From the IMG/VR virus record IMGVR_UViG_3300044825_003036: a stretch of 64,000 bases of DNA; one strand, given 5' to 3'. This document shows positions 44,097-53,509 of the stretch, in pieces. The translations under genes and the position numbers were made by a program. The DNA is from an uncultured virus (IMG/VR IMGVR_UViG_3300044825_003036) (Duplodnaviria; Heunggongvirae; Uroviricota; Caudoviricetes). The first letter of the stretch is position 1. Every line of letters begins with the position of its first letter. The notes under the pieces are model-generated. The model ran no database searches, had not been told where the DNA came from, and worked only from the letters and a program-made list of their open reading frames with translations.

Positions 44097-45641
44097 ATGG
44101 AAAGCACCCTACGAATCGAATACGAGCCGATCGAGAGCGCCAAGCTGGCGGTCGGCAACCCCAAATCTCACGACCTGCCCCTGATCAAAGCCTCTATCCA
44201 GCGATGGGGCTTTGCCGAGCTGGCGGTCGTCAACGAAAAGACCGGACGCCTCGTGGCCGGGCACGGCCGGCGGGAGGCGCTCGTGGAGCTTCAGCGCAGT
44301 GGCGCGCCGCTGCCCGGCAACATTCGGCAGGACGAGCAGGGACGCTGGCTGTGGCCCGTCGTTCGAGGGGTGAGCTTCCGCAACCAGGCGGAGGCCGACG
44401 GCTACTTAGTGGCCGTCAACCGGTCGGTGATGGCTGGCGGCTGGGACGCCGATCGTTTGGCGAAGCTGCTCGACGGTGTCCGCGCCAAAACCGATCTGGT
44501 TGGCACAGGCTTCACGTCGAAGGAGCTCGATCGGATGCTGAGCAAGGCGAAGGTCTCGGCAGTCGAACAGCAGGGCGAGCCGGATGCGGGGGAGCTGCCG
44601 ACCGAGCCGATTTCCAAGGCCGGCGATCTTTGGCTGCTCGGGGACCATCGGCTGGTGTGTGGGGACTGCCGCGACTCGACGGTGATGGCGCGCCTCATGG
44701 ACGGCGACTTGGCGGACGAGCTGTTCGCCGATCCGCCGTACGGCATGGGCAAGGAAAAGGATGGGATCGTGGGCGACAACCAGTACGGCCCGAAGCTTGA
44801 CCAGTTCCAAAGCGAGTGGTGGCGTGCTGTGCGTCCGCACCTCAAGTCGACGGCGGCGGCGTACATCTGGGGCAATGCGCCGGACTTGTGGCGCTGGTGG
44901 TTTGGCTGGCTGTCGCTGAGCGAGACGCTCACGTTCCGCAACGAGATTGTTTGGTACAAGGGGGATTACGCTAACGGGCAACGAACCGCGGTGGCCCTGC
45001 AGTACCCGGTTCTGTCCGAGCGCGCGCTTTTTTTCGTTCTGGGGAACCAAGCTGCTGGAGCGCGTAACCAGGCCCGCTATTGGCAGGGGTGGGAACCGAT
45101 CCGTAGTTACTTGGCGGAGGAGGCCAAGGCGGGCGGGCTCAACGCGGGCAGGGTCAAAGAGCTCACGGGTGCGGGGATGTGGCAACACTGGTTTTCCAAG
45201 AGCCAGTGGCTATTCCTGCCTGAGGACGCCTACCAAGCGCTTCGGGCCGCAACTGGACGTTTCGAGAGGTCCTATGCGGCGCTTAGTGCCCAATATGAGG
45301 CGCTCCGGTTTGAGTTCGAAAAGCTGCAGACGGCGGAGCGCGCCTACCACGACAACACCCACGAGAAGATGGGCGACGTGTGGGAGTTCCCGCGGCTCGT
45401 GGGCGCCGAGCGGCATGGGCACGCGACGCCGAAACCCGTGGCGCTCGCCAAGCGCGCGCTGCTCACGTCGTGCCCGCCTGGCGGCGTCGCGGTGAGCCCT
45501 TTCGGCGGGACGGGCCCCGAGCTGTTGGCGGCGGAGCAAACGGGGCGTAGGGCTCGCCTGGTGGAGCTCCAACCGGCTTACGTGGACGTCGTGATCGAGC
45601 GGTGGCAGCGATTGACTGGAGGGAAAGCGAAGCGGGGCTGA
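44097..45641 (+). CDS. ParB-N domain fused to a beta-class N6/N4 DNA methyltransferase
   Basis: NPKSH...SIQRWGF...VAGHGR; GDLWLLGDHRLVCGD; DPPY; HATPKPV; SPFGGTG. Confidence 0.92.
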   Translation: MESTLRIEYEPIESAKLAVGNPKSHDLPLIKASIQRWGFAELAVVNEKTGRLVAGHGRREALVELQRSGAPLPGNIRQDEQGRWLWPVVRGVSFRNQAEADGYLVAVNRSVMAGGWDADRLAKLLDGVRAKTDLVGTGFTSKELDRMLSKAKVSAVEQQGEPDAGELPTEPISKAGDLWLLGDHRLVCGDCRDSTVMARLMDGDLADELFADPPYGMGKEKDGIVGDNQYGPKLDQFQSEWWRAVRPHLKSTAAAYIWGNAPDLWRWWFGWLSLSETLTFRNEIVWYKGDYANGQRTAVALQYPVLSERALFFVLGNQAAGARNQARYWQGWEPIRSYLAEEAKAGGLNAGRVKELTGAGMWQHWFSKSQWLFLPEDAYQALRAATGRFERSYAALSAQYEALRFEFEKLQTAERAYHDNTHEKMGDVWEFPRLVGAERHGHATPKPVALAKRALLTSCPPGGVAVSPFGGTGPELLAAEQTGRRARLVELQPAYVDVVIERWQRLTGGKAKRG

Positions 45642-45647
45642 GACCGC

Positions 45648-45760
45648 TTGCGCGCCGCTCCGGTCCTGATAGTCTCGACGGGTAGCTACGGCATGGCTAC
45701 GCCTCGTGTGTTGAGTGGAGCTCCCCCGTCTGGTAACCCCAGGCGGGGGTTTTCTTTTTG
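45648..45760 (+). ncRNA. Candidate small RNA of about 80 nt with its own promoter and terminator
   Basis: TTGCGC-16 bp-TAGTCT (extended TG); hairpin GTAGCTA/TGGCTAC; terminator CCCCCGTCTGG/CCAGGCGGGGG + TTTTCTTTTT. Confidence 0.55.
45723..45760 (+). terminator. Intrinsic terminator
   Basis: GC stem followed by TTTTCTTTTT. Confidence 0.85.
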
Positions 45761-45794
45761 GGGGTGACGAAACGTGCCGGGCTCTTGTTGGACA

Positions 45795-46273
45795 GATCCC
45801 CCCCATTCTTCCCTGGTAGTGACTAGGGAAGGTGTTGGATCTTGGGGACCAGGGGATCCGGGGTCAGTCCTGCTACGCTCTCCGAACCTGCGAGACCAGG
45901 GGTTCTGTGGTGCGCTCTTGGGGACCTATGTCGCTAGCCTGAGGCGGCAGTTACCCCGCCTCGGATACCGAGTGCCTACCGAGGGGGGGTTGTGCGCGTG
46001 GGGCCGTTCGAGCCCACGAGCGATCGGCTGCCTGTTCGAGGCGCGAGAGAGCGCCCCTTGCCAACATGCGGCTGGGTACTGACTAGGGTTGCTGACCATT
46101 TCGGCTCACGCCGCACACCGGTCCCGCGGGTGCAATGGGGCGCCATCAGCGAAAGCGCTTGGCCCGAAACCGCTTGGCGGCTGCAGGCGAACAGGGTAGA
46201 CCTGTGTCCGGGACTGGACTGATACACCGCCCAACCCTACCTCGGACGTAATGCCCCTGGGGTAGGGTTTTTT
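45795..46273 (+). ncRNA. Candidate large structured ncRNA
   Basis: Nested long-range helices and many hairpins, no credible ORF, 3' terminator. Confidence 0.5.
46233..46273 (+). terminator. Intrinsic terminator
   Basis: AACCCTACCTC...GGGGTAGGGTT followed by TTTT. Confidence 0.75.
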
Positions 46274-46408
46274 GATCCAATTTGGGGAGCTGCCGGCTGT
46301 CCCGTTCTGGGGCTGTGGACAAGTCAAAAAGTCCTAGCGTTCGGCTCTTGCTTCTGTCAGAAGCCCCCTTGCCAGCAAAGCCGCCTGAGGGGTGGGGCTG
46401 GCCCCTGA

Positions 46409-46482
46409 TGCGGTTTAGAGCAGCTCGGTAGCTCGCTAGGCTCATAACCTGGAGGTCGTTGGTTCAAATCCAACAGCCGCAA
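46409..46482 (+). tRNA. tRNA-Met (CAT), initiator-type; CCA not encoded
   Basis: Cloverleaf: TGCGGTT/AGCCGCA acceptor, GAGC/GCTC D-stem (A11:U24), CTCATAA loop, GTTGG-TTCAAAT-CCAAC T arm. Confidence 0.93.
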
Positions 46483-46488
46483 CTGAAA

Positions 46489-46693
46489 CGTCCAGAGTCC
46501 CTGCTTTGACTTCTCCCCCGCCGGGAACACCGATGGGAAGGGGAGCAAGATGGTGCGGGATGATGCAGGATCCTGTTAAACGCAGGGAATTGACCCTGAG
46601 TCCGGCGAGTATGGGCGGCCAGCCTTGAGCCGCACCGCGATGACCCGGGCGATTTGTGCGCCCGCCAGCGGGAAGCTGGTGGGACTCTGGACG
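46489..46693 (+). ncRNA. Candidate 205-nt multibranch RNA immediately 3' of the tRNA
   Basis: Perfect 13-bp closing helix CGTCCAGAGTCCC/GGGACTCTGGACG enclosing several stems. Confidence 0.5.
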
Positions 46694-46739
46694 GTTCGCC
46701 CAAGGGCCTGGGGCAGGTGGCACAGAAAAAACCTGCCCA

Positions 46740-46786
46740 CCAAAACTTTTCCTTGCCGATTTATTCTGGCTAAGGGAAGTTTTGGG
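46740..46786 (+). promoter_or_regulatory. Early promoter bracketed by inverted-repeat operator-like boxes
   Basis: AAAACTTTTCC-TTGCCG-17 bp-GAAGTT within GGGAAGTTTTGG; the same architecture occurs at about 50019-50064. Confidence 0.6.
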
Positions 46787-46821: not shown

Positions 46822-47022
46822 ATGGACGCAGTATTCAGCAAGATCGGCACGACTCGTGCGGGCAAGCTCACTCACTGGATCAAGGGTGAGGTGCGCGGCC
46901 ACCAAGCCCCAGCTTGTGGCCAGAATCGTCGGGCTTGGGGTGCTGGGGACATGAGGACCCTGGCAGCGGAGACCCGCCCAACCTGCGCTCACTGTCGCAA
47001 GATTCAGGCGGCGAAGGCATGA
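46822..47022 (+). CDS. Small Cys/His protein
   Basis: Hairpin-SD leader; H...ACG...TCAHC. Confidence 0.65.
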   Translation: MDAVFSKIGTTRAGKLTHWIKGEVRGHQAPACGQNRRAWGAGDMRTLAAETRPTCAHCRKIQAAKA

Positions 47023-48312: not shown

Positions 48313-49290
48313 ATGACGACGACGAAAGAACAGGTGGGCGCGGTGTTGGCTTCGGGCGGCACCCAAACGATTGGAGCTTTGGTGTTCTGGTCGCTGGCTT
48401 CGGTGAGAGTGAAGCGAGACGAGTTCCGCGAGCGGCTGACCTCCCTCGGACTGGACAGTGCCATGGGCAAGGACCCGTCCCCCCGCAGCGCGCTGAGCAA
48501 GGCCGTTGCGGCGGCCTTCACTGGGCGCAAAGGCGTGATGGCGCGGCGTTTGGCGAACGGCAACGTCGGGATCGTGCTGGAGCGAATTACGGCCGGGCAC
48601 GCCAAGTATCGGCACGTCGCGACGGTTTCGGCACATTCCGGGGCTTTTCAAACAGACGCTGAGGTCGAACCGTTGCCAGCAACCAGCTCCGGCCCCGTCG
48701 TGTCCTATGAAGGGGAGACTGAGGGAGTTCCCGCGCGTGAAGCGCTCACAGCTGTGGCCCCGTCGCTCTTGGCTGAGCTGGGCGCGGCGTACGAGACCGC
48801 CAACAGCTACCTGCTCACCAACGACCTGAGTGAGGTGTTGATTTCGGCAGTCAACGGAAGCCCGCACCGTGGGCTTCTGGCGGGGCTCAGCCTGCGCGAG
48901 CGGACCGGCGGGCTCTACTTCATTGCTGGGCCCTACGTGGAGCGGATGCAGCAGCTCCAGCACCTGATCCAGGACGTGGCACCGTCGTGTGTCGTGTCGG
49001 TGATGACCATCACTGGATCCAAAGAGAACCTTGGCGAGGCGGCTCGCGCGGCTAAGCTGACGTTTGCGGCGCAGCTCGACGAGCTGAAGACCGAGCTGGT
49101 GGACTTCAAGGCGGGGCTGCAGATGAAGGGCAAGGGCGCGTCCGAGTATTCGATCGAGACCCGGATCGAGCGGTACAAGGACTTGGCCGCGCGAGTGGCG
49201 GTGTTCAAAGACTTGCTTGGGGTCGATGACCTGGAGCGTCAGATCGAGGCGGCCAAGACGGAGATGGTCAAAGAGCTGGAGGGCCTGTGA
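48313..49290 (+). CDS. Conserved phage/MGE protein (DUF3150/DUF6744-like)
   Basis: GALVFWSL N-terminus, GGLYFI motif, C-terminal coiled coil; near the AAA/VWA genes. Confidence 0.55.
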   Translation: MTTTKEQVGAVLASGGTQTIGALVFWSLASVRVKRDEFRERLTSLGLDSAMGKDPSPRSALSKAVAAAFTGRKGVMARRLANGNVGIVLERITAGHAKYRHVATVSAHSGAFQTDAEVEPLPATSSGPVVSYEGETEGVPAREALTAVAPSLLAELGAAYETANSYLLTNDLSEVLISAVNGSPHRGLLAGLSLRERTGGLYFIAGPYVERMQQLQHLIQDVAPSCVVSVMTITGSKENLGEAARAAKLTFAAQLDELKTELVDFKAGLQMKGKGASEYSIETRIERYKDLAARVAVFKDLLGVDDLERQIEAAKTEMVKELEGL

Positions 49291-49706
49291 CGCCACGGCA
49301 GCAGCTGGTTTGGGCTCGCCGGTGGCTCCAGGTTCATAAGTTTTGGCTGTTGGTGTTTTCCTGCATTCATCAGCCACGTTGCCTGCTCCTGCGAGTTGCT
49401 GCAGTGCTTGACCGTCATGGGCACAAGGCTCTCGACCGAGCCGGAACCGCGAGAGCCAAGGCGCAGTTTCTGCTCGATGAGATCGCGAAGAACCCAGAAC
49501 AGCAGGCCTTTTGGGCTGCAGAGAAGGATCGAACGTGAACGACGACCGGGAAGTGTTTTGGACTCGGATGGTGGTTGCCGCGCTGTCGAATCCCGCGGTG
49601 ACGGACGGGCCAGCGGCGCACGTGGCGGAACGAGCTGCCGATCTGGCGGATTGTGCGCTAGTGGAGTTCGATGCCCGTTTTCGCAGGGACAGCAGCTCGG
49701 ACCAAG

Positions 49707-50051
49707 GTGATCCTGAGGAGGCACAAGCCGATCTACCAGATCAAGAACTTCCGTGAGAAGTTCCTCTGGCGGCTCGCTGAGCTTGGGCTGGACCAGGTGG
49801 ACGTCGCTCAGCGAATGGGCGTGATCCATCGGCGGGTGAAAGCGATCCTCCATGCAAGGCGGATCGAGGAGGCTACTCTGGCGCGGGTGAGCGCGGCGCT
49901 GGAGTGGCCGATCGAGCGGTGGCAGCGCCGGCTACGGGTGCCTAAGTCGCCAGCCAAGACGGCGCTTCGGCACCTCATGGCGCACGCCGAGCAACAAGCA
50001 AAAAAACTGGAGCAGCCGAAAACTTTCCGCTTGCCCCGCTCCGGCGAGTAA
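49707..50051 (+). CDS. XRE-like HTH protein
   Basis: LAELGLDQVDVAQRMGV...TLARVSAALE. Confidence 0.65.
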   Translation: MILRRHKPIYQIKNFREKFLWRLAELGLDQVDVAQRMGVIHRRVKAILHARRIEEATLARVSAALEWPIERWQRRLRVPKSPAKTALRHLMAHAEQQAKKLEQPKTFRLPRSGE

Positions 50052-50064
50052 GGGAAGTTTTGGG
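50019..50064 (+). promoter_or_regulatory. Second copy of the early promoter/operator
   Basis: AAAACTTTCCGC-TTGCCC-17 bp-GAAGTT within TAAGGGAAGTTTTGGG. Confidence 0.6.
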
Positions 50065-50100
50065 GGTCGCGGTTTGGCGACAACGAAAGGACAAGCGGAA

Positions 50101-50316
50101 ATGGCAGCTGAAAAGGCACAGGTTGTTGTGGGTGGGTTCGTTCAGGCTCACGTCATGCTACATGCGGACGCGAACGTTCGAACGATGTTCCCCTTGCTCC
50201 GTCGCAAGGGCTGCCTGGACTCCCAGATCTGGGACTCGATCCGTGAGCTCCGCGCTCGCGGGCTGAACTACGACGCGGTCACTGGGGCTTTGCAGTTCGT
50301 CAAGGTGGCTGGGTAA
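50101..50316 (+). CDS. Small hypothetical protein
   Basis: ATG after the hairpin-AACGAAAGGACAA leader. Confidence 0.6.
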   Translation: MAAEKAQVVVGGFVQAHVMLHADANVRTMFPLLRRKGCLDSQIWDSIRELRARGLNYDAVTGALQFVKVAG

Positions 50317-50498
50317 AGAAGGGGCCGGGGGGCTATGAGCGAGGACGAGCGAGACACGATTCGCTGCAGTCCCGAGGAGCCGACGATCCCTGCGCAAGCG
50401 CCAAGCTGCGCGGCGGAGCCGGAGGTTCCACGGGACTCAGAGTGGGCAGGTTTTTCAACTGAAATGGCCGCAATTTTGGCCGAGATACTGGAGGCAGA

Positions 50499-51632
50499 GT
50501 GCAAGATTTGTTCGTGAACTTGGGGAAGTCATTGGGTGCTACGTTTCGTGAACGTGACGAAGTGATCAATGGGCTGATGTGTGCGGCGCTGGCGCAGGAG
50601 CACGTGCTTCTGCTCGGGCCACCTGGTACGGCCAAGAGCGCGCTGGCGCGAGCGTTTGCGGAGTCGGTGGGCGGCCACCATTTCGAGTGGCTGCTCAGCA
50701 AGTTCACCGCGCCGGAGGAGCTGTTTGGGCCGATCTCGTTGCAGGGGCTCAAGGCAGATCGCTACCGTCGAGTGACGACCGGCAAGCTGCCCGAGGCGGA
50801 AACGGTGTTCCTGGACGAGATCTTCAAGGGCGGTTCGGCGATCCTGAATACGCTCCTGGCCGCGATCAACGAACGCGTGTTCCACAACGACGGCCAGGTG
50901 CAAAAGCTGCCGCTCCGAATGGTGATCGGCGCGTCCAACGAGCTACCCGAGGGCCCCGAGCTCGGCGCACTCTACGACCGGTTCTTGTTGCGCTACTGGG
51001 TGGGTTACCTGCAGGGCCCGACCCAGTTTATTTCGATGATGCGTTCGTCGGAGCAGCTGTTCTCTCGGGTCATTTCGACCGAGCAATGGGACACGGCGCG
51101 GGCAGAGGTCGCTAAGCTTCCGGTCGATCCGGACTTGTACCAGAGCTTTTTCAAGCTCCGCACCGAGGCGCAGAAGGTCGGTCTAGCGCTCTCGGACCGA
51201 CGTTGGATGCGGATGATTCGCCTAGTCAAGGCCAGCGCTTGGCTTGCTGGGGACAAGGTCGCCGACCTGGAGCATTTCGACGTGTTGAAGGCGGCGCTGT
51301 GGAGCGACCCAGGCGAGCGCGACGCAGCCAACAAGCTCGTGGAAGACACGGTCGGCGGCGTGCTGACGCTGGCGGCGTCGGTGAGCCAGACGATCGAGCG
51401 GCAGGTGCAGAATGCTCAGCTGGACTTGGCTATTCCGGCGCGTGATGCTGAGTGGCAGCGGAAGCTGATCACAGCGCAGCAAGAAACGTCGCGCGGCGTC
51501 GCGCGGCTCAAAGAGCTGCAGACGCAGGCGGCAACCAAGAGTCAGAAGGCCAAGCTGGCGGCGCTGGTCGAGAAGGCCGAGCAGACCGTGGCCCCGGTGA
51601 AAGCCACCCTCAAGGCATCGCTGGAGATCTGA
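50499..51632 (+). CDS. MoxR-family AAA+ ATPase (RavA-like)
   Basis: GPPGTAKS, PEELFGP, FLDEIFK, ILNTLL, GASNELP, ALYDRF, SDRRW. Confidence 0.92.
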   Translation: MQDLFVNLGKSLGATFRERDEVINGLMCAALAQEHVLLLGPPGTAKSALARAFAESVGGHHFEWLLSKFTAPEELFGPISLQGLKADRYRRVTTGKLPEAETVFLDEIFKGGSAILNTLLAAINERVFHNDGQVQKLPLRMVIGASNELPEGPELGALYDRFLLRYWVGYLQGPTQFISMMRSSEQLFSRVISTEQWDTARAEVAKLPVDPDLYQSFFKLRTEAQKVGLALSDRRWMRMIRLVKASAWLAGDKVADLEHFDVLKAALWSDPGERDAANKLVEDTVGGVLTLAASVSQTIERQVQNAQLDLAIPARDAEWQRKLITAQQETSRGVARLKELQTQAATKSQKAKLAALVEKAEQTVAPVKATLKASLEI

Positions 51633-53509
51633 TGACGCATCTTATTACTGCGGGCGATGGTACCCAAATGACGGTTGCTGACGATGCCTTCGATCCAGAC
51701 CCTGGGAGCTCGATTCGCCGAGACCGCTTTACGGTTCGGTCCGCTCGACGGGTTGAGATCGGGGGCCGTTTCTCCGCTTGCCTCGATCTCAACGGCGGTG
51801 GCTTTTGGGCGGTGCAAAACACCTCCAATTCCAAAGGCGGTCCGCCGGTAGCGACTTTGGCTGGTAGTGTTTGGAGCAAGGAGCACTCGCGCCAACTCGC
51901 GGCCTTGGCTGACGGCGTTCCCTACGTCCCTGGGGTGCCCGCTTTTGGCAAGCCTAGCCAGAGTCCCGAGGATATCGCCAAGGCGATGCTGGAGGTGCTT
52001 GTGCAGAGTCGCGACGCCACAGTGGAGTCAACGGACATGGTTCGTTACTTGGTAGGCAACGAGGCAGCGGCAGGAGGGACTTTTCGCGAGGCGTGCCTGC
52101 GCCACGAGAACGAGACATGGCCAACGTTCGCGCGTGAGCTGTTCGCCTCGCTCTACGATGAGCCAAAGCCAACAGACAGCAGACCGCAAGGACCCGAGTG
52201 GATAGTTACGTTGCTGCAGGCCGCCAAGAACAGCGCAAGCTGGCCCGATCTGCAGCGCCTAGCCAAGGGCGAGCCGTGGTCGGCGGGAGTAGGCGCCGCG
52301 GAGATCGTCCAGGCCCTGGGCGAGACAATCAACGATCTGCTGGAGGAGCTCCCGAAAGAGGACCCACAACGACTGCAGGACCAGGCGGACCAGCTGGCGG
52401 AGATGGTCGGAGAGGACCACGAGGCGACGACGGAGGAGCAAGCAAAGGCGGACGCGGTGCAGGCAGCCCAGCTGAAGGTCGCGGAGGCGCTACAGACGCT
52501 CGATTTGGCCAGCGTCCCGGCGGCTGTGACGGCCGCTGTCCAAGCTCTGGCTGGCATCGATGGGCAGCTGCAGGCGCTTGGAGCGGGGAGCAACAACCCC
52601 AACCCGTTGCTTGCCAGCACCCCTCACGAGGTGCGCGAAGCCCTGGCAAAGAACCCCGTCCTGCGGGGGATTGCTGACGTCGCGGGGCGACTGCGCGTCG
52701 CGGCGCGCGCTGTAAAACGGAACAAGGTTCGGTACCTGCCCGAGCAGATCGTGGACGTGTCGTTGGGGGCAGAGCTCTCGCGGCTGCTTCCTGCTGAGCT
52801 GCTCCAGTTGGCTGAGCCTGACGTCGAGGACAACCTGTTGCGGAAGCTGTCGGAGTCCCAGGCGATGGTCTACGACCTGGAAGGGTCAGAGCCGGTCAAG
52901 ATGGGGCCGATTGTGGTCGCCATCGATTCGTCCTCCTCGATGGCTGGCCAGCGTTACGAGTGGGCAATGGGCGTGGCGCTCGCGCTGGTTGAGCGAGCGG
53001 TGTCGGACAAGCGGCCTTTCCGGCTCTTCACGTTCGCAATGCGACCCAACACGGTCTACACCGTGGACAAGCCGCGGGACATTACCGTGCATCTGCTCCA
53101 GGAAATGCTGACGACATTCTCGGGCGGTGGGACCGACATTGGTCGAGCGGTGCGCCAAGCGGCGGAGCTCACTCGGGACAAGACGTGGACCAAGGCGGAC
53201 CTGGTGCTGATCTCCGACGGTGAAGACGGCGATTTCTCGCCCAGCTTGTACGAGCTTTCTGAGCAGGGCGTCTGCGCTTACGGGATCTCGATCGGATCGA
53301 CGTTCTCGGAGCCGGTCAAGTCGGCGATGAGTGGCGTAGCGGCGGTCTCGGACCTACAGATCCAAGATGGCAGCGCCAACGTGGACGTGGTGTTTGGGCT
53401 CGATGGGGTTCCCAGAACGCTCCCAACACCTGCAGTTGTGAGTAAAGTGGATTCACTTGCAGCGGAGACAGCGGCGGCTCGTAAGCGAGCGATGGACACT
53501 CCGTTTTGA
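51632..53509 (+). CDS. VWA-domain protein (ViaA-like), partner of the MoxR ATPase
   Basis: LLPAEL, GPIVVAIDSSSSM (MIDAS), GGGTD, DLVLISDG; TGATG overlap. Confidence 0.88.
   Translation: MTHLITAGDGTQMTVADDAFDPDPGSSIRRDRFTVRSARRVEIGGRFSACLDLNGGGFWAVQNTSNSKGGPPVATLAGSVWSKEHSRQLAALADGVPYVPGVPAFGKPSQSPEDIAKAMLEVLVQSRDATVESTDMVRYLVGNEAAAGGTFREACLRHENETWPTFARELFASLYDEPKPTDSRPQGPEWIVTLLQAAKNSASWPDLQRLAKGEPWSAGVGAAEIVQALGETINDLLEELPKEDPQRLQDQADQLAEMVGEDHEATTEEQAKADAVQAAQLKVAEALQTLDLASVPAAVTAAVQALAGIDGQLQALGAGSNNPNPLLASTPHEVREALAKNPVLRGIADVAGRLRVAARAVKRNKVRYLPEQIVDVSLGAELSRLLPAELLQLAEPDVEDNLLRKLSESQAMVYDLEGSEPVKMGPIVVAIDSSSSMAGQRYEWAMGVALALVERAVSDKRPFRLFTFAMRPNTVYTVDKPRDITVHLLQEMLTTFSGGGTDIGRAVRQAAELTRDKTWTKADLVLISDGEDGDFSPSLYELSEQGVCAYGISIGSTFSEPVKSAMSGVAAVSDLQIQDGSANVDVVFGLDGVPRTLPTPAVVSKVDSLAAETAAARKRAMDTPF

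What the first reader, a model, noticed from the sequence alone, without database searches (positions are those of the whole stretch)
45795..46273. Candidate large (about 400-480 nt) structured ncRNA upstream of the phage tRNA
Seen: an otherwise gene-dense genome leaves this stretch without a credible ORF. It shows nested long-range pairings: TCAGTCC 45864-70 with GGACTGA 46216-22, CTGCCTGTTCG 46028-38 with CGAACAGGGTAG 46188-99, and TGCGGC about 46067 with GCCGCA about 46110. It also has local stems (CTTCCCTGGT/ACTAGGGAAG, CTGAGGCGG/CCGCCTCGG, CGTGGG/CCCACG, GGCGC/GCGCC, an AGC-GAAA loop) and ends in an intrinsic terminator. Established: large phage ncRNAs such as GOLLD and ROOL lie beside tRNA genes. 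Inference: this could be a new class of large phage RNA. High GC inflates chance pairing, so this remains a candidate.
Basis: partly seen in the sequence, partly recalled or inferred. Interest (0 to 1): 0.8.

Follow-up and report, generated by a model that had tools for sequence, protein, structure and literature searches.

The report
Conserved orphan non-coding RNA in phage
An uncultured bacterial virus carries a roughly 400-base protein-free gene, closed by a transcription stop signal, that a distantly related virus also keeps (flipped, and with no tRNA beside it), so it is probably a new, uncatalogued RNA, although its fold and expression are not yet shown.

Summary
The stretch is non-coding and lies between two strong terminators. 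One homologue was found: L304:2181-2553, minus strand, in a related myophage. It follows the same methyltransferase but is inverted and has no tRNA on its 5.3-kb contig. Global alignment beats 2000 of 2000 shuffles, while silent sites of neighbouring genes are near saturation. Each copy ends in a rare strong terminator on the same strand. So a selected, stand-alone ncRNA gene is likely (core 45860-46223). No Rfam family matches; a GOLLD control worked.

The ornate fold is not established. The core folds no better than shuffles (z -0.07). Two-sequence structure tests range from modest (2 of 84 nulls; 16 of 16 coding controls lower) to null (z -0.4). No further homologue and no RNA holder was found. 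The tRNA link is not conserved.

An earlier scan note (e1-5816141) describes a ~475-nt RNA before a tRNA-Met in another phage; I could not test whether it is this family. Verdict: probable new phage ncRNA family, n=2.

The parts
45860..46223 (+). Conserved core of the candidate ncRNA (homologous to L304:2181-2553, minus strand)
   Evidence: Global alignment 23 vs -60+-13, 0 of 2000 shuffles, best of 18,498 windows in 20 related loci; non-coding
45860..45876 (+). 5' conserved block (GGGGTC..CTGCTAC); includes the 5' arm of the closing helix
   Evidence: 13 of 17 identical in L304
45863..45870 (+). 5' arm of closing helix P1 (pairs with 46216-46223)
   Evidence: Pair probability 0.93; L304 can form a 7-bp helix at the same motif with two both-sided changes (read by eye; runs of 7 bp or more arise in 20% of random arm pairs)
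46216..46223 (+). 3' arm of closing helix P1
45912..46054 (+). Middle domain closed by helix 45912-19/46047-54 and inner helix 45972-77/46039-44; poorly alignable inside
   Evidence: Pair probabilities 0.73 and 0.84 in the window alone; L304 can pair the motifs GCTCTT and TGCCT with matching 3' arms (chosen by eye); unbiased consensus fold of the 5' half gives no support (z +1.9)
46091..46163 (+). Most conserved 3' domain: CCATT/AATGG enclosing hairpins CGGC/GCCG and CACC/GGTG, followed by GGCGC/GCGCT
   Evidence: Exact 10- and 12-nt shared blocks; 22 of 27 model pairs invariant, 2 changed on both sides, 2 on one side, 1 broken; recovered by the Sankoff script; but pair probability about 0 in the window's own ensemble
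46233..46275 (+). Intrinsic terminator closing the RNA
   Evidence: One of 9 strong sites on both strands of 64 kb; the only strong site in L304 lies 14 nt behind the homologue's closing helix on the same strand
45795..45859 (+). 5' hairpin region; membership of the RNA uncertain
   Evidence: 11-bp hairpin, probability 0.99; similarity to L304's 5' flank not significant, 169 of 2000 shuffles
45723..45758 (+). Upstream intrinsic terminator, after the methyltransferase at the end of the late genes
45648..45675 (+). Promoter-like site (TTGCGC, 16 nt, TG-extended TAGTCT); lies upstream of the 45723 terminator
   Evidence: One of 4 such matches on the + strand of the window; pattern match only
46409..46483 (+). 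tRNA-Met (CAT), neighbour; not conserved beside the homologue
   Evidence: none on L304, none in 5 of 5 related near-complete records

Best explanation
A stand-alone non-coding RNA gene of about 400-480 nt, carried as an accessory cassette at the junction of late and early genes in some members of an uncultured myophage group. SHOWN: no coding frame; sequence conserved in a distant relative; same-strand terminator behind both copies; either orientation; no fixed downstream gene or tRNA. INFERRED: it is transcribed as its own unit and acts in trans as a folded RNA. A closing helix joins its ends, a variable middle domain sits inside, and the invariant 3' junction domain is the working surface. 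By analogy with GOLLD and ROOL, it most likely accumulates in infection and acts as a scaffold or decoy that binds a host macromolecule or other copies of itself, rather than as a leader or an antisense RNA. Odds: real ncRNA gene about 0.7; also extensively structured about 0.5; self-assembling cage about 0.15.
For: Homology: (35.6 bits, E 7e-6; the model's structure was drawn with L304 in view). Four-fold sites of the neighbouring genes are near saturation (56 of 136 identical vs 34% expected; 24 of 69 vs 37%), yet the element aligns at 54%, like coding DNA at 50-69%. The similarity spreads over frames of both strands, with a stop in L304's best + frame. Terminators are strand-consistent in 2 of 2. 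In the 3' domain, loop lengths differ while stems are kept. The shared structure captures 0.449 of the free folding energy, vs 0.39 for the reverse strand and 0.13-0.34 for 16 of 16 coding controls from the same two phages; 2 of 84 and 3 of 84 column-shuffle nulls reach it.
Against: Core folds no better than shuffles in either phage (z -0.07 and +0.5). RNAalifold on a sequence-only alignment: whole z -0.4 (43 of 150); 5' half z +1.9; the 3' domain folds better on the reverse strand (7 of 1000) than on the forward (83 of 1000), although 1 of 60 coding windows reaches that level too. Sankoff gain is reached by 6 of 106 nulls. Pair counts are reached by 117 of 500 shuffles. My hand-made shared model costs 24 and 39 kcal/mol over the minimum. 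No promoter-like match inside 45759-45860. n=2; recent transfer of the cassette could also explain the similarity.
Confidence: 0.55

Rival explanations
1. A DNA-level element (protein-binding array, recombination or replication site) whose short inverted repeats are operator half-sites; the terminators only insulate it.
For: It occurs in either orientation; folding is at chance level; the conserved blocks are short inverted repeats; strand asymmetry of folding is inconsistent.
Against: Spacing between the inverted halves differs between the two phages. The terminator follows the element's own orientation in both. The element was not found in 7 of 7 related records at least 90% complete (best E 0.39), which is unlike an essential site. 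An O-like initiator gene lies about 10 kb away, and such origins usually lie within that gene (recalled).
Confidence: 0.15
2. A decayed or passively carried mobile cassette, recently exchanged between phages, with no current function.
For: Patchy presence and inversion at an accessory-gene hotspot; identity is fairly even along the core, 11-22 of 30 columns per bin.
Against: At about 50% identity the two exact blocks of 10 and 12 nt sit together in one 70-nt domain, and both terminators are intact with unrelated sequences. I saw no coding remnant.
Confidence: 0.12
3. A cis-acting leader or attenuator (for the tRNA and early genes) or an antisense RNA against the methyltransferase.
For: It lies upstream of the tRNA and early genes in the window, behind a promoter-like site and a terminator; in L304 its terminator overlaps the methyltransferase 3' end.
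Against: Neither relation is shared: in L304 it points away from the early genes and has no tRNA; in the window it is on the methyltransferase's own strand and does not overlap it.
Confidence: 0.12
4. A small protein gene (for example 45992-46222, 76 codons).
For: Open frames of 57-102 codons exist; one frame gives a similar HFG...QWG peptide in both phages.
Against: All four candidate ORFs score -0.14 to -0.21 on the codon model; L304 has an in-frame stop within that peptide; third positions in the blocks are invariant.
Confidence: 0.04

Closest known systems
GOLLD RNA (Rfam RF02032)
   Same: Large phage ncRNA of unknown function, often near tRNAs, one member next to a Met-tRNA; conserved 3' part with a more variable 5' part (PMC12286853 section 7; PMC12990946 passages).
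   Different: No match at E up to 10 for either copy, while the model found 5 of 48 other viral records at 117-309 bits. No alignment signal against 3 fetched GOLLDs. About half the length of full GOLLD (700-833 nt) and G+C-rich (67-71% in the 3' domain; 42% in L630).
ROOL RNA
   Same: Phage and prophage RNA, often near tRNA islands, function unknown (PMC12286853 passages).
   Different: No Rfam match (no positive control run for ROOL); shorter than 550-659 nt; no pseudoknots shown here.
Candidate structured RNAs of viruses (PMC10690425)
   Same: Uncatalogued structured elements from IMG/VR.
   Different: Those are 29-151 nt long (passages). The two conserved blocks were not found in 6 supplementary files searched; files 1, 2 and 4 were not searched, so a sub-domain could be listed there.

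Membership tests
GOLLD | Conserved 3' domain scoring on RF02032 (gathering score 150 bits) | tested here: not met
   No hit at E up to 10 in the window or L304; control positive
GOLLD | Sequence likeness to known members | tested here: not met
   6 of 6 pairwise scores within or below the shuffle range
GOLLD / ROOL | Usually near tRNA genes | tested here: inconclusive
   Met in the window; not met on the 5.3-kb L304 contig
ROOL | Match to the Rfam ROOL model | tested here: not met
   No hit among 4227 families; no ROOL positive control run
Large ornate RNAs as a kind | Extensive secondary structure with significant covariation | tested here: inconclusive
   Only two sequences; tests split (for; against or null)
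Large ornate RNAs as a kind | Discrete, abundant transcript | not testable with these tools
   No RNA holder was listed
GOLLD / ROOL | RNA-only oligomer or cage | not testable with these tools
   Needs in vitro transcription with mass photometry or cryo-EM
tmRNA, RNase P, SRP, 6S, group I/II introns, riboswitches | Match to their covariance models or ARAGORN | tested here: not met

The most novel reading that the evidence does not exclude
A new class of large ornate phage RNA, unrelated to GOLLD and ROOL and independent of tRNA arrays, moving between phages as a self-contained invertible cassette. Its invariant 3' junction domain does not form in the single-molecule prediction because it is held by tertiary or intermolecular contacts, so the RNA self-assembles into an RNA-only oligomer or carries a catalytic core. 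The tRNA-Met and a second, strongly folding 210-nt element behind it would make a 1-kb island of three RNAs.
Probability: 0.3. Interest if true: 0.85.

Novelty: new variant of a known kind. Interest (0 to 1): 0.55.

Why it matters
Only a few classes of large phage RNAs are described, and their function is still open (PMC12286853). A G+C-rich class of about 400 nt that is accessory, orientation-free and not tied to tRNA arrays would show that such RNAs arose more often than the catalogue suggests. It would also give a compact object for probing and cryo-EM. It is a case that folding-energy screens would miss, since the core folds at chance level.

Tried and rejected
Homologue searches that gave only chance hits. 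Genomes: a 22-base motif over one genome per species (75). BLAST of phages and plasmids. The best near-miss, L323 (E 0.29), lies inside a 72-codon ORF and was rejected. Related phage records: no significant match in 14 viral records and 7 genomes (best E 0.29). L301, L302, L303 and L305 are fragments that start within about 1 kb upstream of, or inside, the DUF6744 gene, so they say little. Expression: no RNA holder listed; contigs of 3 same-study runs left the element uncovered; neither bears on expression. Host: not identified (no match in 301 and 168 genomes of two unnamed phyla; uninformative). A first Sankoff run timed out. The L304 fold had a misplaced helix and was redone. Rejected readings: CsrA-type sponge (4 GGA in 371 nt, below the genome rate); tmRNA-like ends (by eye; ARAGORN negative). 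Kissing-loop candidates were not shared by both copies. Literature: four searches listed no paper on such an RNA; this covers only the held library.

Full report
Setting. The window is almost all of a 64.5-kb tailed-phage contig (longest contig 64,481 for the window's own protein). It has terminase, portal, major head, baseplate and amidase genes, then a ParB-like/DNA methyltransferase at 44097-45641, and afterwards DUF6744, MoxR, vWA, exonuclease, Sak4-like and initiator genes (55 ORFs scanned). Between the methyltransferase and the first small ORF at 46822 lies about 1.2 kb with one tRNA-Met. No genome is held for the window and the host is unknown.

Observation. The interval is non-coding: best frame -0.27 against at least 0.049 for 97 of 97 gene pieces, with the caveat that the codon model was trained on those genes. 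Stems of 7 bp or more are in excess (0 of 100 shuffles), but not at the 6- or 8-bp thresholds. Rfam gives nothing but the tRNA and sub-threshold hits.

Homologue. A DUF6744 alignment retrieved 2 viral and 5 metagenome loci. One, L304 (Ga0070692_10005733, 5,332 nt), has the same methyltransferase (50% identical) and DUF6744 (37%). Right behind the methyltransferase it carries a copy of the element on the opposite strand. The global score is 23 against -60+-13 (0 of 2000 dinucleotide shuffles); the local score is reached by 1 of 2000; and it is the best of 18,498 windows in 20 related loci. A model built from the window's 3' domain finds it at 35.6 bits, E 7e-6, and nothing else in 349 kb; I chose that model's structure after seeing L304, so this test is partly circular. 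Four-fold degenerate sites of the two shared genes are at or near background (41% vs 34%, 35% vs 37%), so neutral DNA of this age should not align. The element does, at 54%, with exact blocks of 10 and 12 nt. Coding windows of the same phages have similar or longer exact runs (up to 17 nt), so the element is about as conserved as a gene, not more.

Strand and unit. A scan for stems of 9 bp or more followed by a U-tract finds 9 sites on both strands of the window and 1 in L304. Two of the window's sites bracket the element (45723, 46235). L304's only site lies 14 nt behind the homologue's closing helix, on the homologue's strand. This is the least biased evidence that the element is a transcription unit read as the window's + strand. 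The only good promoter-like match (45648) lies upstream of the first terminator, so the RNA's start is open: read-through or an unrecognised promoter. The 5' hairpin region 45795-45859 is not significantly like L304's flank (169 of 2000).

Structure. Helices that both copies can form at shared motifs: P1 (45863-70/46216-23), 45912-19/46047-54, 45972-77/46039-44, and a 3' domain of CCATT/AATGG, CGGC/GCCG, CACC/GGTG and GGCGC/GCGCT. The first three are also predicted from the window alone (0.93, 0.73, 0.84); the 3' domain is not (about 0), although three of its hairpins have probability 0.5-0.8 in L304. I wrote a simplified Sankoff aligner (stacking energies recalled from the Turner set, flat loop penalty). 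Its score gain is reached by 6 of 106 nulls. The true energy of its shared structure is reached by 2 of 84 nulls, the ratio by 3 of 84, and it exceeds 16 of 16 coding controls and the reverse strand. Against this: RNAalifold on a sequence-only alignment is null for the whole (43 of 150), adverse for the 5' half (295 of 300) and better on the reverse strand for the 3' domain (7 vs 83 of 1000). Only 2 of 27 model pairs change on both sides. With a slip of 6 nt, random arm pairs give runs of 5 bp or more 75% of the time, so helix agreement by eye has little power. The fold is therefore plausible and unproven.

Distribution. Five motif scans and four BLAST searches gave no third copy (see Tried and rejected). 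Seven related viral records at least 90% complete lack a significant match and 5 of 5 tested lack any tRNA. The element is accessory and rare in what could be searched; closer relatives exist as proteins but their DNA could not be fetched.

Mechanism. Orientation and neighbours differ between the copies, which argues against a leader or antisense role. A terminator that follows the element's strand, and stems kept while loop lengths change, argue for RNA over DNA. The most likely reading is a trans-acting folded RNA whose invariant 3' domain is the binding or assembly surface; a scaffold or decoy role is inferred by analogy only. Rivals are listed with odds.

Comparison. It is not GOLLD: the model that scores 117-309 bits on 5 of 48 other viral records gives no hit here, and three fetched GOLLDs do not align. 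It is not ROOL or any other Rfam family by score. It resembles them in size class, phage origin, a conserved 3' part and, in one copy, a tRNA neighbour. Papers seen: PMC12286853 (search passages and all of section 7), PMC12990946 (passages), PMC10690425 (passages and a term search of 6 supplementary files, 3 files not searched). PMC5737381 and the others were seen only as search listings. Supplements that I could not see, and papers outside the library, may already list the motif.

Earlier notes. e1-5816141 reports a 475-nt RNA with about 15 covarying helices upstream of a tRNA-Met in another phage.

Verdict. Probable new phage ncRNA family known from two copies; gene status about 0.7, ornate structure about 0.5 and unproven. 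Interest 0.55.

Noticed in passing
window 46485-46697: A second ORF-free element starts 2 nt behind the tRNA. A 17-nt inverted repeat (16 of 17 complementary) closes a multi-branch fold of six hairpins; z -3.85 on + and -4.53 on -, 0 of 150 shuffles, lower than 43 of 43 sampled genome windows. No Rfam match, no homologue found. It could be a second ncRNA or a miniature inverted-repeat element; I saw no target duplication by eye.
   Followed up: partly
window 45648-45758: A promoter-like site followed about 75 nt later by a strong terminator: possible small RNA, 24-codon leader or attenuator ahead of the large RNA.
   Followed up: partly
window 46409-46483: The tRNA-Met looks initiator-like (A11:U24 pair, recalled criterion) but has only two of the three anticodon-stem G:C pairs and a U1:A72 pair (read).
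   Followed up: no
window 48313-53509: DUF6744 - MoxR AAA - vWA module shared with related phages in the same order.
   Followed up: no
L628-L632: GOLLD RNAs in five IMG/VR records that were fetched for other reasons.
   Followed up: partly
L300 8217-8245: A related phage has a promoter-like site at the same place, just behind the methyltransferase, followed by a 330-codon ORF instead of the RNA: the junction is an accessory slot.
   Followed up: no
window 46707-46785: Two further hairpins before the first early gene; one shares an A-tract/CCTGCCCA motif with the 5' flank of the L304 copy (by eye).
   Followed up: no
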